DNA of 64,000 nt. It comes from Acidimicrobiales bacterium (lineage in GTDB: Bacteria > Actinomycetota > Acidimicrobiia > Acidimicrobiales > Bog-793). The notes beneath the pieces are model-generated. The model saw only the letters and a list, made by a program, of their open reading frames with translations. It had not been told where the DNA came from and made no database searches. Position numbers and translations under genes: made by a program. Within the stretch, counting starts at the first letter, position 1. Each line of letters begins with the position of its first letter. The DNA is taken from NCBI GenBank assembly GCA_050015175.1, contig JBEKBX010000017.1:195-64194 (forward strand). Direction: 5' to 3'. Positions 4,837 to 18,676 of the stretch are shown here, in pieces.

Positions 4837-7549
<2,713 letters not shown>

Positions 7550-7719
7550 ACACGGCGCACCAGCTTCTCCCCGACGCGTGGACGCCCACAGCATCGGGGG
7601 GAATCCGCTCGGACGGCCACCTTCGCCGCGTCCGCAAGGGTGGAGGTCAGGCAGGCAGAACGAGCCATTGGATCAAACGTTTACCCGACCAGAACACGTC
7701 TGCGCCCGATACCTGATGG

Positions 7720-8125
7720 TGTCCGCGGTCACATCGCCGCCGCGGCAGAAGTCGACAAGCACCAACGCACTCCCACTGTGGACGTGTCCTGCAGCGGAGC
7801 TGTGACAACCCTCGCCAGGTCCGATGCGAGGCGTGCATCGACGCCTACCCGACATCGACGCCCGAGATCAGAGGTCGGTGTGGTGCGGCGATCGCGACTC
7901 GGAAGAAAGCACGCACGGAGTGGAACAGGGCCAATCCCGGGACGGTCCACGACCCGGAGCTGCTCCGACGGGAGATCCTTCCGCGCCTCCGGACCCTGCC
8001 GCTTTCCGAAGCATTCGAGGCGGCCGGTTGTTCCAAGGCTTGGTGCTGGCGCCGCCTACCTTCCTGGACGGTCGTAGGAGCACCGTCGCCCAACATTCGG
8101 GGCAGAATCCTCACACCCCACGGCG
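7720..8125 (+). pseudogene. Decayed Zn-finger + HTH fragment resembling the C-terminal tail of stand-alone (casposase-like) Cas1 proteins
   Basis: Frameshifted LWTCP / SGAVT, then open frame +1 CDNPRQVRCEACIDAYPTSTPEIRGRCGAAIATRKKARTEWNRANPGTVHDPELLRREILPRLRTLPLSEAFEAAGCSKA (7801-8040). The family assignment is from recall and was not searched. Confidence 0.5.
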
Positions 8126-8580
8126 GCCCATCCCGAGGTGTAGGCTCAGCTAGCAGTTCTCAGCAGGGACGCTCCGTTCGGCTGGGACGACCAGTCAGGT
8201 CGCCGCCCGGGTGCAGGCTCAACGCCTCTTCTGATCATGGTGAAGAGGAGGGGCATGTCTGCAGAGGATCAGGCCATGTTTGGTCACCGCCGTTGTGTCC
8301 TCACGATCGCTCTCTCGGGAAGTGTCTGGCATGTCGCGTCGGGAGCACGGCCGCACGGAACTTGGAGAGACAAATGGATCGGGAGGTAAGACTGGCCGTC
8401 AATCGTGGCAGCGCACGCGTCCCCGACCGTGGTGCCAGGCGCGCCGACGCGGAAGATTCGCGGCCCCTTCCCATGCCCGCCGCATGGCCACAGCACGGCA
8501 GGCTAAACGGCGGCGGGGGTGAAGCACTTGCTTCGCTCGAGCCTCCCAGCCCGAGTGTGCCATTCGTCTCCACAAGGATC

Positions 8581-9711
8581 ATGCCCACGCCAACAGTGGC
8601 GTTGGTGAGCACCTACCCGCCGACCGTCTGCGGACTAGCCACTTTCACGAGCAACCTATCGGCGGCAATCGCCGCTCCCGAGTCGGGTTGGCGCACTCTG
8701 GTTATCCGGGTAGTTGATCGCGTCGAAGCCGATGCACACGACGAGGTTGTCGCCCAGTGGGTCGCCGGCGACCGCGCCTCTCTTCATCGGGCGGTCACAG
8801 CCATCGAGTCGTCGGATGCGGTGGTGCTCCAGCATGAGTACGGGCTATTCGGGGGGCCTGACGGCGAGGACGTGCTCGAGTTGATCGAGGCCGTGGAAGT
8901 GCCGCTCGTTGCAGTGCTGCACACGGTGCTACTCGACCCGACCCTGCATCAGCGTTACGTCCTCGAACAAGTGATGACGGCGGCATCGTTGACCGTCGTC
9001 CAGAGCGAAGCCGCCCGTCGTCGTCTTATCGCGGTCCACGGTGCGGACGCCGAACAGGTCGTGGTCGTGCCCCATGGCGCAGCCGCGAACTTCACAGGAC
9101 CGGTGCTACCCGAGATCGAACGACCGGCCGTCCTGACTTGGGGCCTCCTCGGCCCGGGCAAGGGGATCGAGCACGGGATCACCGCGGTCGCTCTCCTGCG
9201 GCAACGTTCGCCCGCGCCGTGGTACATCGTTGCCGGGCAGACTCACCCCAAAGTCCTCGCCGCTCAGGGCGAGCGCTACCGCTGCCAGTTGCAGGACCAG
9301 AGCCGCGCCCTGGGCATAGCCGACCGGGTGTGCTTCGACGACAGCTACCGGGACTGGGGGTCCTTGCGAGCGTTAGTCCGCAGCGTCGATGTCGTGCTGT
9401 TGCCCTACGACTCGCTCGACCAGGTCAGCTCCGGTGTACTGGTCGAGGCCATCGCATCGGGTAAGCCGGTCGTCGCGACGAGATTCCCGCACGCGGAAGA
9501 GCTGCTCTCTCAAGGCGCCGGTTTGACGGTGCCCCAGGGCAACTGCGAGGCCATGGCAGATGCACTCGACCGGGTGCTGTACGAACCCGGCTTGGCGGCA
9601 AGAATGGCCGCCGCCTCACGGCGGGAGGGTGCTGCCCTCCTCTGGCCGGCGATAGGCGCGACATACCGTTCGCTCATTGCGGAGGTCTTGCCAGCGAGAG
9701 CAGTGGCGTGA
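8581..9711 (+). CDS. Glycosyltransferase family 4 (GT-B, mannosyltransferase-like)
   Basis: STYPPTVCGLATFT, LQHEYGLFGG, GLLGPGKGIE, SSGVLVEAIASGKPVVAT (EX7E region). Start placed at ATG 8581; the track ORF begins at 8293. Confidence 0.9.
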   Translation: MPTPTVALVSTYPPTVCGLATFTSNLSAAIAAPESGWRTLVIRVVDRVEADAHDEVVAQWVAGDRASLHRAVTAIESSDAVVLQHEYGLFGGPDGEDVLELIEAVEVPLVAVLHTVLLDPTLHQRYVLEQVMTAASLTVVQSEAARRRLIAVHGADAEQVVVVPHGAAANFTGPVLPEIERPAVLTWGLLGPGKGIEHGITAVALLRQRSPAPWYIVAGQTHPKVLAAQGERYRCQLQDQSRALGIADRVCFDDSYRDWGSLRALVRSVDVVLLPYDSLDQVSSGVLVEAIASGKPVVATRFPHAEELLSQGAGLTVPQGNCEAMADALDRVLYEPGLAARMAAASRREGAALLWPAIGATYRSLIAEVLPARAVA

Positions 9712-17696: not shown

Positions 17697-18545
17697 ATGA
17701 GACGGCGGATCGGGGTCTGGGCCCGGCGGGCCGGAATCGCCCTCGTGATCGCGTGGTCGCTGTTCCCGGTCTACTGGGCGCTCAACACGAGCCTCATGAC
17801 AAGTTCTGAGGCTCAGAGCACTCCCACACACTTCTTCGCTACTCGGCCAATCTTCACGAACTATCAGGCCATCTTCGGAGCCGGTCCACAGTCCGCCGCG
17901 GCGGCCGGGGGTATCGGCCGTTCTCTCGTGAACATCGTGGTGGAGAGCGGCGGGGCGACACTGCTGACGCTCGCTATCGCGATCCTCGGTGCCTACGCGT
18001 TCGCGCGGCTGCGATTCCGGCTGAAGAACCTGTTCTTCTACACCGTGCTCGGGACCCTCACCCTCCCGGTATACGCGACGCTGATTCCGCTCTACCGGAT
18101 CATGAGCGAAGTCGGCCTTATCAACACCTACCTCGGCATCGTTCTCGTCTACGCATCGGGGTTCATGCCCCTTGCCATGTGGATCATGTACAACGTCTTT
18201 CTCGCCCTCCCTCCGAGCATCGAGGAGGCGGCCGTCATCGACGGAGCCTCGATGCTCCAGAGGTTCTACAAGGTCGCGCTTCCCATCGCGAAGCCAGGGA
18301 TCGCTGCGACGGCGATCATCACATTCCTCTTGGGATGGGGGCAGTTCATCTTCCCCCTGGTGCTCAGTAGCACCGGGTCGACCCAGCCGCTCACCGTCGT
18401 CCTCGCTGCGCTCGAAGGCCGCCACGTCGTCCCCTACACGATCATCAATGCGGCGGCTATCGTTGCTATCGCCATCCCTGCGGTTCTGGTCTTTCTGTTG
18501 AATAGGTGGATCGTGGAAGGCATCATCGCGGGAAGCGTGAAGTAG
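17697..18545 (+). CDS. Carbohydrate ABC permease (MalG-like)
   Basis: IEEAAVIDGAS...VALPIAKPGI motif. Confidence 0.93.
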   Translation: MRRRIGVWARRAGIALVIAWSLFPVYWALNTSLMTSSEAQSTPTHFFATRPIFTNYQAIFGAGPQSAAAAGGIGRSLVNIVVESGGATLLTLAIAILGAYAFARLRFRLKNLFFYTVLGTLTLPVYATLIPLYRIMSEVGLINTYLGIVLVYASGFMPLAMWIMYNVFLALPPSIEEAAVIDGASMLQRFYKVALPIAKPGIAATAIITFLLGWGQFIFPLVLSSTGSTQPLTVVLAALEGRHVVPYTIINAAAIVAIAIPAVLVFLLNRWIVEGIIAGSVK

Positions 18546-18676
18546 TTATGGACCGCCCCGCAGGTCAGGCCGTGAGAGTCCCAGATGAGAACCGGGCGCC
18601 CACTGCTGGCAACCCTGATCAGACGGTTCCCCCGGACCCACGAGACGGCAGAACGAAGAGGCGGAAAGGTGCTCCC

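What the first reader, a model, noticed from the sequence alone, without database searches (positions are those of the whole stretch)
7720..8125. Orphan Zn-finger/HTH fragment resembling the tail of stand-alone Cas1 (casposase-like) proteins
Seen: a start-less, frameshifted reading LWTCP..SGAVT/NPRQVRCEAC...PEIRGRCGAAIATRKKARTEWNRANPGTVHDPELLRREILPRLRTLPLSEAFEAAGCSKA. This is a CxxC..CxxC-type knuckle, a basic helix and an HTH-like end, between katG and the GT4 cluster. Established: casposon Cas1 integrases carry a C-terminal HTH. Inference from recall only: this matches the extended C-terminus of CRISPR-independent Cas1 homologs in Acidimicrobiia. It would mark a former mobile element and explain the accessory character of the neighbourhood. 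No Cas1 catalytic core or CRISPR array is present here.
Basis: inference. Interest (0 to 1): 0.55.

Follow-up and report, generated by a model that had tools for sequence, protein, structure and literature searches.

The report
Dead casposase-tail fragment beside katG
The stretch is a broken, non-functional ~300-base leftover of the DNA-binding tail of a Cas1-type transposase (casposase); it marks where a casposon-type mobile element once sat, and is ordinary debris in a genus that is unusually rich in such elements.

Summary
Window 7766-8061 (weakly from 7732) is a start-less remnant with at least four indels. It matches the last ~100 codons (zinc ribbon, basic helix, HTH) of stand-alone Cas1 genes in the same genome: 79% DNA identity and tblastn E 1e-30 to a 562-aa Cas1 on contig C95.

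The full-length relatives form a large Acidimicrobiales solo-Cas1 family with the catalytic E/H/E intact, and the genome has no Cas2 and no CRISPR array.

These genes are casposases:
- Family loci carry a ~1000-aa protein that Pfam misses. Its motifs, a confident model and fold search identify it as a family-B DNA polymerase.
- The same genome holds an intact 20.5-kb casposon on another contig, with 130-bp inverted ends and an exact 14-bp target duplication at a tRNA-Val 3' end.

The window copy has no Cas1 core, polymerase or inverted ends nearby. It lies in a 560-bp genome-specific junction between a katG block and a glycosyltransferase block that sit apart in relatives.

Across the genus, tail-only relics outnumber Cas1 cores about 4:1. 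The cause is unresolved.

This scan has already found Zn-ribbon/HTH casposases and their relics on other DNA. The finding is a new member of a known kind, of modest interest.

The parts
7766..8061 (+). Pseudogene relic of the 3' end of a casposase (solo Cas1) gene. It corresponds to residues ~424-520 of the 562-aa paralogue P0003: zinc ribbon, basic helix and most of the HTH.
   Evidence: DNA alignment to G000:C95 and C46 cas1 genes; tblastn; column-by-column protein alignment A2.
7732..7765 (+). Weak 5' extension of the relic into the linker that precedes the zinc ribbon in full-length cas1 genes.
   Evidence: blastn matches of congeners' full-length cas1 genes begin at query 933-946 of window:6800-9700, which is window 7732-7745.
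7767..7806 (+). Damaged first zinc knuckle. 'ALPLWTCP' is followed by a 4-bp deletion (after 7789) that removes the DCGG codons. 'SGAVT' is then read in another frame, and a 1-bp deletion follows after 7806.
   Evidence: Six-frame translation and pairwise DNA alignment.
7801..8055 (+). Longest in-frame piece (P0002, 85 codons, no start). It holds the second CxxC at 7825-7836, the basic helix RGRCGAAIATRKKAR, and the HTH-like part from about 7951 to 8040. The invariant RGRRG is changed to RGRCG.
   Evidence: dN/dS against the C95 tail is 0.32, versus 0.16-0.19 for pairs whose aligned tail is intact and in frame.
7550..7731 (.). Genome-specific spacer between the katG stop codon and the relic. 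No similarity was found in this genome or in the genus.
8062..8133 (.). Genome-specific spacer between the relic and the start of the conserved GT4 block.
   Evidence: Homology of congeners' GT4 loci starts at window 8121-8134.
5294..7549 (+). katG, the end of the upstream synteny block (block about 4889-7560). It is not part of the relic and is listed as the left boundary.
   Evidence: ORF list. Homology to G003 and G014 katG loci ends at 7549-7560.
8134..9711 (+). Conserved leader (8134 to about 8580) and GT4 glycosyltransferase gene (probable start near 8581). This is the right boundary block and is not part of the relic.
   Evidence: The frame open from 7717 is continuous with the GT4 frame only by chance in this high-G+C sequence.

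Best explanation
Window 7766-8061 is a dead remnant of the 3' end of a casposase gene. A casposase is the Cas1-family integrase of a casposon, a self-synthesizing transposon that carries its own family-B DNA polymerase. In intact proteins this tail (CxxC-x12-CxxC zinc ribbon, basic helix, XRE-like HTH) is the DNA-binding module attached to the Cas1 catalytic core. By analogy with the M. mazei casposase, whose HTH deletion abolishes integration, it probably recognises the target or the element ends (inferred).

In the window the Cas1 core (about 1.27 kb), the polymerase and the terminal inverted repeats have been deleted. What is left has no start codon and at least four frame-breaking indels, and has lost the first zinc knuckle and the last ~20 conserved codons. 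It does nothing now. It records that a casposon of the C95/C46 lineage once lay at this point.

That point is today the junction between a katG-fur block and a GT4 block, which are not adjacent in related genomes. The rearrangement or deletion that made this junction most likely removed the rest of the element (inferred).
For: Identity of the fragment.

The full-length paralogues are Cas1:
- PF01867 E 5e-44 and TIGR00287 above cut-off.
- E203, H291 and E306 align with casposase E162/H232/E247 (PMC6977970).

They are solo genes: no Cas2 and no CRISPR-like array.

The family is in Acidimicrobiales.

They are casposases:
- A conserved ~1000-aa neighbour of cas1 shows PolB motifs A, B and C in alignment A1.
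- Its ESM Atlas neighbours carry PF03175/PF00136.
- The AF2 model has pLDDT 84.8, and the Foldseek top 50 are all family-B polymerases at probability 1.00.
- It lies 3-6 kb from cas1 in five genus genomes.
- G000:C6:101274-121823 is an intact element with 130-bp TIRs (129/130 identical) and an exact 14-bp TSD at a tRNA-Val 3' end copy.
- G020:C6 is a decayed C95-type element with ~250-bp imperfect TIRs.

Breakpoint position.

Decay: frameshifts and raised dN/dS.

Function of the tail: the delta-HTH casposase is inactive (PMC6977970). The Cas1-ZBD-HTH architecture is described for AceAut-C1 (PMC4046053).
Against: - Nothing else of a casposon is detectable in the window. There is no PolB match on contig C17, no TIR-like motif, no tRNA within 20 kb and no TSD. 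'A whole element was once here' is therefore an inference from one gene fragment.
- The progenitor could have been an already truncated tail-only copy moved here by recombination.
- The lineage of the relic (C95/C46 type) is shown inside TIR-bounded elements only in a decayed copy in another species. The intact element in this genome carries a casposase only ~46% identical.
- The Pfam PolB models themselves find nothing. The polymerase call rests on motifs, a language-model neighbour search and a predicted fold.
Confidence: 0.88

Rival explanations
1. The fragment descends from an independent small zinc-ribbon/HTH gene, either a tail-only derivative or the stand-alone paralogue family. It would then be debris of a small DNA-binding protein gene and not of a full-length casposase gene.
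For: A stand-alone protein with the same CxxC...CxxC plus HTH layout exists on C40. A tail-only 135-codon ORF with a GTG start exists on C70. Tail-only copies are about four times as common as cores in the genus. One congener (G012) has five tail pieces and no full-length cas1.
Against: The closest relatives by far are cas1 3' ends (77-79% DNA identity), whereas the C40 protein is only ~26-30% identical. Homology runs upstream of the zinc ribbon into the cas1-specific linker. Tail-only copies have variable 5' cut points and many carry stop codons, as expected of truncations. dN/dS of relics is raised relative to intact tails.
Confidence: 0.07
2. The fragment is still functional. It could be a truncated DNA-binding peptide that inhibits casposon integration, or part of the 5' leader or promoter of the downstream GT4 operon.
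For: The frame is open from 7717 to 9711 and continuous with the GT4 ORF. A paralogous locus on C42 also has a tail relic directly upstream of a GT4 paralogue, as does G019:C278. Truncated transposase domains acting as inhibitors are known for other transposons (general knowledge).
Against: There is no start codon in 576 nt. There are at least four indels, the first zinc knuckle and the end of the HTH are missing, and an invariant Arg is changed. Orthologous GT4 loci in at least eight congeners lack the relic, and their homology starts only at 8121-8134. Long open frames are expected at 66% G+C.
Confidence: 0.03
3. The fragment is a remnant of a CRISPR adaptation module, that is, a cas1 gene whose array and partner genes were lost.
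For: The full-length paralogues score best against CRISPR Cas1 models and structures: TIGR00287, type I-G/I-C/I-D models, and PDB 4n06 at E 4e-20 against casposase 6opm at 1e-14.
Against: There is no Cas2 and no CRISPR-like array in a genome that is 93% complete. The ZBD-HTH tail is not a feature of CRISPR Cas1. cas1 is linked to PolB, TIRs and a TSD. NCBIfam has no casposase model, so the best-hit names are uninformative.
Confidence: 0.01

Closest known systems
Family 3 (bacterial) casposons, especially the AceAut-C1 casposase of Candidatus 'Acetothermum autotrophicum' (Krupovic et al. 2014, PMC4046053)
   Same: The host is bacterial. The Cas1 core is followed by a zinc-binding domain and an HTH, both at the C-terminus. 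The element also encodes a family-B polymerase, TIRs and methyltransferase or restriction cargo.
   Different: The polymerase here is so divergent that PF00136 and PF03175 miss it. No HNH gene was looked for or seen next to cas1 in the own-genome element. Placement within family 3 was not tested by phylogeny because no reference sequences were at hand. The window holds only ~300 bp of the gene.
Family 2 casposons of Aciduliprofundum boonei and Methanosarcina mazei (PMC5137440, PMC6977970)
   Same: The casposase has a C-terminal HTH that is essential for integration. The TSD is 14-15 bp and overlaps the 3' end of a tRNA gene; the own-genome element has a 14-bp TSD that overlaps a tRNA-Val 3' end copy by 2 nt. 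The catalytic E/H/E is conserved.
   Different: Those elements are archaeal, their casposases have no zinc ribbon before the HTH, and sequence similarity to 6opm is limited to the catalytic domain (E 1e-14).
CRISPR-associated Cas1 (types I-G, I-C, I-D; PDB 4n06, 7cr6, 7mi4)
   Same: The Cas1 fold and active-site residues of the full-length paralogues are the same.
   Different: There is no Cas2 and no array, and there is an added ZBD-HTH tail. The window fragment consists only of that tail and has no counterpart in CRISPR Cas1.
Cas1-solo group 1 of Methanomicrobiales (PMC4046053)
   Same: These are stand-alone cas1 genes without CRISPR.
   Different: Group 1 lacks the full set of catalytic residues and shows no sign of mobility. 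The family here keeps E/H/E and sits in TIR/TSD-bounded elements.

Membership tests
Cas1 (PF01867 / TIGR00287) | Cas1 N-terminal and catalytic domains recognised by the family model | tested here: not met
   For the window fragment there is no PF01867 match on contig C17 and no Pfam or NCBIfam hit for P0001 or P0002. For its full-length paralogues P0003 and P0004 the feature is met (E 5e-44 and 3e-40; TIGR00287 114.9 bits).
Cas1 (PF01867 / TIGR00287) | Catalytic Glu-His-Glu/Asp triad | tested here: met
   In paralogue P0003, E203, H291 and E306 align with conserved positions of 7cr6 and 6opm (residues E162/H232/E247 named in PMC6977970). This does not apply to the window fragment, which lacks this part.
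Casposon (Krupovic et al. 2014) | Cas1-type integrase not associated with cas2 or a CRISPR array | tested here: met
   There is no PF09827 match in the genome and no array in a 22-mer periodicity scan. Three full-length cas1 genes and one half gene are present.
Casposon (Krupovic et al. 2014) | Family-B DNA polymerase encoded in the same element | tested here: met
   This is met for family loci and for G000:C6. Pfam models fail. The conserved ~1000-aa neighbour has motifs DxSSxFP, NSLVFG and YRDTDS, ESM neighbours with PF03175/PF00136, a PDB profile hit on motif C, and an AF2 model whose Foldseek hits are all PolB. It lies near cas1 in five genus genomes. Nothing of it is in the window.
Casposon (Krupovic et al. 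2014) | Terminal inverted repeats | tested here: met
   G000:C6 has arms at 101274-101403 and 121694-121823, 130 bp, 99.2% identical. G020:C6 has ~250-bp arms at about 70% identity. No TIRs were found within +/-10 kb in seven metagenomic loci, and none in the window.
Casposon (Krupovic et al. 2014) | Target-site duplication of about 14-15 bp | tested here: met
   An exact 14-bp CACAAAGAGATCTT flanks both TIRs of the G000:C6 element. No TSD can be defined for the window relic.
Family 3 casposase architecture (AceAut-C1 type) | Zinc-binding domain plus HTH fused C-terminally to Cas1 | tested here: met
   CxxC-x12-CxxC followed by a conserved HTH-like block is seen in nine tails. Sub-threshold zf_Rg matches occur in 6 of 9 and HTH_31 in 5 of 9. 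PF13560 is precomputed on three homologues. The architecture is described in PMC4046053.
Family 3 casposase architecture (AceAut-C1 type) | Phylogenetic placement within the family 3 Cas1 clade | not tested
Only word-level similarity (3-4 of 110 words) to earlier-scan casposases was seen.
CRISPR adaptation module | cas2 and a CRISPR array next to cas1 | tested here: not met
   Neighbours of cas1 are PolB, methyltransferases, restriction genes and helicases.

The most novel reading that the evidence does not exclude
The tail relics may not be random debris. Across 20 congeners, matches covering residues 470-530 are about four times as frequent as matches to the Cas1 core, with a steady 5'-to-3' rise. 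Several tails stand in the same orientation downstream of a cas1 gene or directly upstream of co-oriented cargo such as GT4 clusters. One genome keeps five tails and no intact cas1.

The most novel reading not excluded is that the zinc-ribbon/HTH-coding 3' end of casposase genes is preferentially retained. Two reasons are possible:
- Truncated tails or their DNA may act against incoming casposons, as a dominant-negative binder of the target or element ends.
- The tail may be kept as the leader of useful downstream cargo.

A further possibility is that casposon remnants are the substrates of the rearrangements that moved katG in this genus.
Probability: 0.12. Interest if true: 0.6.

Novelty: new member of a known kind. 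Interest (0 to 1): 0.36.

Why it matters
The relic itself has no function. Its value is as a marker. It led to a genus of Acidimicrobiales in which casposons, rare elements that are thought to be ancestral to CRISPR adaptation, are abundant: 19 of 20 genomes have matches.

Two points follow from that:
- The polymerase of these elements is invisible to the standard Pfam models, so surveys that define casposons by cas1 plus a PolB Pfam hit would file these genes as unexplained 'solo Cas1'.
- One element in this genome looks recently mobile, with 130-bp TIRs that are 99% identical and an exact 14-bp TSD at a tRNA-Val end, and it carries a type I restriction system.

The strong excess of tail-only remnants is an unexplained pattern that could bear on how casposons decay or are controlled.

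Tried and rejected
- Pfam and NCBIfam on the fragment alone gave nothing.
- Pfam PolB models PF03175 and PF00136 found nothing in the own genome, in 21 genus genomes or in 5 further class genomes. I first read this as 'no polymerase, hence not a casposon'. That was wrong: the polymerase is too divergent for those models.
- A single-gene, IS-like element was considered. No TIRs flank the three full-length genes, so I rejected it.
- I searched for TIRs in seven 16-22-kb metagenomic loci and found none. Those elements probably extend beyond the fetched flanks.
- PHROGs on ten neighbouring proteins gave no hits, so there is no support for a prophage reading.
- I considered a model in which cargo cassettes insert into the cas1 3' end and displace the old tail, as with tRNA-targeting islands. 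The C6 relic is of the C95/C46 lineage and not the resident C6 lineage, and cas1 lies in the middle of the intact element, so the simple form of this model is not supported.
- Rfam found nothing significant in window 7400-8800.
- ARAGORN found no tRNA near the window relic. It also missed the truncated tRNA copy at the C6 element, which Rfam detected.
- I tried to reconstruct the history of the C42 island from flanking repeats. It was too rearranged to resolve.

Full report
**1. What is in the window**

Between the katG stop codon (7549) and the GT4 gene lies 7550-8292, which has no ATG/GTG/TTG in the frame that is open from 7717.
- ALPLWTCP in frame 2, from 7767;
- SGAVT in frame 1;
- NPRQVRCEAC...AAGCSKAW in frame 3, from 7801 to 8055.

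On its own the peptide matches no Pfam or NCBIfam family.

**2. What it is homologous to**

A six-frame search of the organism's own assembly (4.5 Mb, 118 contigs, 93% complete) found about 20 related stretches. Two of them lie at the end of long ORFs. These are a 562-aa protein on C95 (P0003) and a ~603-aa protein on C46 (P0004). A third, more distant copy (46% identity) lies on C6.

- All three are Cas1: PF01867 E 5e-44, and TIGR00287 above its cut-off.
- At the DNA level the window matches C95 at 79% over 282 bp (E 1.5e-60) and C46 at 77.5%.
- A gapped alignment places the relic at window 7766-8061, which corresponds to residues ~424-520. It shows a 4-bp deletion that removes the DCGG codons of the first zinc knuckle, a 1-bp deletion 17 nt later, and further indels near 8040.
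- Congeners' cas1 genes extend the match weakly to about 7732.
- In a nine-sequence alignment the window residues follow the family column by column, apart from damage such as RGRRG changed to RGRCG.
- dN/dS against the C95 tail is 0.32. It is 0.16-0.19 for the two comparison pairs with intact tails: C46, and the C42 half-gene, whose aligned tail is in frame. It is 0.23-0.53 for the other relics. This fits a gene that was functional for most of its divergence and then decayed.

**3. The family**

P0003 has over a thousand relatives in the large protein collection. Almost all are 490-570 aa, and where named they are annotated as Cas1 of Acidimicrobiales MAGs. A few carry a precomputed HTH_31 hit in the tail.

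- The catalytic residues are intact: E203, H291 and E306 align with the casposase active site E162/H232/E247 (PMC6977970).
- The genome has no Cas2 and no CRISPR-like array in a periodicity scan.
- The family is present in 19 of 20 other genomes of the genus.
- At E <= 1e-30 it is present in only 6 of 300 other genomes sampled from the class. One of those six, G250, is flagged as unpublished, so that count rests partly on it.

**4. Are these casposases?**

Notes from this scan on other genomes described similar Zn-ribbon/HTH solo Cas1 genes as family 3 casposases. Krupovic et al. 2014 does describe AceAut-C1 as Cas1 with a ZBD and an HTH at the C-terminus.

My first tests seemed to contradict this. 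PF03175 and PF00136 found no polymerase in this genome, in 21 genomes of the genus or in five further class genomes.

Gene neighbourhoods on megabase contigs showed something else. cas1 is the last gene of a co-oriented block with a DnaB/AAA_25 helicase, SSB, Mom, methyltransferases and an unannotated ~750-1080-aa protein, followed by variable restriction-modification cargo. That large protein is conserved among the loci and in G000:C6. Several lines identify it as a family-B DNA polymerase:
- Its nearest ESM Atlas clusters carry PF03175/PF00136 (score 0.96).
- A 23-sequence alignment shows DxSSxFP, NSLVFG and YRDTDS, which are PolB motifs A, B and C.
- A profile search of PDB sequences hits a DNA polymerase across motif C (E 0.03).
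- An AlphaFold2 model (pLDDT 84.8, pTM 0.84) retrieves only family-B polymerases among the top 50 Foldseek hits, including 9°N, KOD, Pol alpha, phi29 and HSV, at probability 1.00 and E down to 2e-9.
- The alignment profile finds this polymerase in 9 of 21 genus genomes. It lies within 3-6 kb of cas1 in G020:C6, G015:C118, G017:C94, G018:C140 and G000:C6.

**5. An intact element in the same genome**

G000:C6:101274-121823 (20.5 kb) is bounded by 130-bp inverted repeats that are 129/130 identical. It is flanked by an exact 14-bp direct repeat, CACAAAGAGATCTT.

- The left repeat overlaps by 2 nt the end of a tRNA-like sequence (Rfam tRNA, 38.5 bits).
- That sequence is a 51-nt copy of the 3' part of the genuine tRNA-Val(TAC) 25 kb upstream.
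- The element carries the divergent PolB, an N6_N4 methyltransferase, the C6-type cas1, a type I R-M system (hsdM, hsdS, hsdR) and a Beta_protein gene.
- This matches what is known of casposons: a 14-15-bp TSD that overlaps a tRNA 3' end (PMC5137440, PMC6977970).
- A decayed element of the relic's own lineage, with a frameshifted cas1, PolB and ~250-bp imperfect TIRs, is present in G020:C6.

**6. Where the window relic sits**

Congeners' katG loci are homologous to the window only up to 7549-7560. Their GT4 loci are homologous only from 8121-8134 onward.

- In G003 the two blocks are on different contigs.
- The katG-fur block (window about 4889-7560) lies in three different contexts in G000, G003 and G014.
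- The G003 flanks of katG correspond to G000:C3 at 41.0 kb and 49.07 kb, and another tail relic lies between those points at C3:44382-44729.

The relic therefore occupies a 560-bp genome-specific junction. Nothing else of a casposon is in the window: no PolB, no TIR-like motif and no tRNA.

A paralogous locus on C42 has the same order, with a tail relic followed by a GT4 paralogue. There it lies downstream of a cas1 gene truncated by an IS5-like transposase and of further tail copies.

In P0070-type elements an AhpC/thioredoxin-reductase-like pair lies just upstream of cas1. katG could therefore once have been similar cargo. This is speculation.

**7. The excess of tails**

- In G000, 3 loci cover residue 200 of Cas1 and 19 cover residue 500.
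- In the 20 congeners, match depth rises from about 20 (residues 50-200) through about 30 (300-400) to 64-85 (470-530).
- Relics share a 3' limit near codon 540 and have variable 5' cut points. Codon 540 is also where conservation among full-length genes stops abruptly.
- All G000 relics belong to the C95/C46 lineage.
- A 23-nt motif taken from the G020:C6 TIRs occurs 13 times in G000. It lies 2.3-4.4 kb downstream, in right-end orientation, of the C70 and C25 relics, and of the C95 gene through an ambiguous contig link.

This suggests that many relics are right-end portions of 5'-deleted elements. The evidence is suggestive only, and the window copy lacks the motif. I could not establish why tails survive preferentially.

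**8. Verdict**

The object is a non-functional relic of a casposase tail at a rearrangement junction. It is a new member of a known kind, and the same kind was met earlier in this scan on other DNA.

The more interesting points lie outside the window:
- a casposon-rich genus whose polymerase escapes Pfam;
- a structurally intact element at tRNA-Val;
- the unexplained 4:1 excess of tail relics.

Noticed in passing
L074:7275-7404 and L043:13695-13824 (G000:C6:101274-121823): A structurally intact 20.5-kb casposon on another contig of the same genome. It has 130-bp TIRs (129/130 identical) and an exact 14-bp TSD, CACAAAGAGATCTT (L074:7261-7274 and L043:13825-13838). It carries a divergent PolB, an N6_N4 methyltransferase, cas1 (46% identical to P0003), a type I R-M system and a Beta_protein gene.
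   Followed up: yes
G000:C6:76303-76377 and L074:7217-7267: A genuine tRNA-Val(TAC) lies 25 kb upstream, and a 51-nt copy of its 3' part lies right at the casposon's left end. The ~24.9 kb between them looks like a second integrated element at the same tRNA. Its content was not examined.
   Followed up: partly
L073:2005-5151 (alignment A1); G000:C6:107106-110045: A family of ~1000-aa proteins has no Pfam or PHROG hit but is a family-B DNA polymerase by motifs, predicted fold and Foldseek. Surveys that rely on PF00136/PF03175 would miss it.
   Followed up: yes
window 8134-8580, especially 8151-8272: A ~450-nt leader upstream of the GT4 gene is conserved at 83-86% in congeners. Its first ~120 nt recur at one or two further places per genome in the genus (78-89% identity), for example 3.3 kb downstream of katG in G003 in reverse orientation. 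There is no Rfam match, and it could be a regulatory RNA or promoter region.
   Followed up: partly
window 4889-7560: The fur-like gene plus katG form a 2.6-kb block that lies in three different genomic contexts in three congeners (G000, G003, G014), which suggests it moves as a unit.
   Followed up: partly
L042:5966-12199 (G000:C42:29965-36198): This is an island with a cas1 gene cut at codon ~266 by an IS5-like transposase, followed on the same strand by three further tail relics. Two copies of a gene for a KAYDEA-repeat protein each stand directly before a tail (an 88% identical 419-bp unit). A paralogous GT4/GH130-like cluster follows.
   Followed up: partly
G000:C4:202183-202205, C70:4746-4768, C25:58118-58140, C73 (three copies) and others: The 23-nt motif GGCGCCCACGTTCGCCCACGTGG occurs 13 times in the genome (up to 4 mismatches) and lies inside the TIR arms of the decayed casposon G020:C6. 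Several copies lie 2-4 kb downstream of cas1 relics in right-end orientation.
   Followed up: partly
G000:C40, about 18100-18660: A stand-alone small protein has the same CxxC...CxxC zinc ribbon plus HTH layout as the casposase tail (~26-30% identity). It is a separate paralogous family of DNA-binding proteins.
   Followed up: no
L072:5755-7752; G000:C39:2292-3320 and C63:70-750: Some elements of the family (P0080 loci) carry a family-A DNA polymerase in addition to the PolB-like protein. G000 has two extra PolA-like genes besides Pol I, on contigs without cas1.
   Followed up: no
window 7717-9711: A 1995-nt frame is open from upstream of the relic to the end of the GT4 gene, with no start codon in its first 576 nt. 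This is a high-G+C artefact that could mislead gene callers into a long N-terminal extension of GT4.
   Followed up: yes
L042:9463-9855 and L046:4607-5215: A small, nearly identical gene (MAVVGDRVQISSRKVGE...) recurs near the tail relics on C42 and C70. From memory it resembles DUF1918, which was not tested; it is another repeated module of these accessory regions.
   Followed up: no
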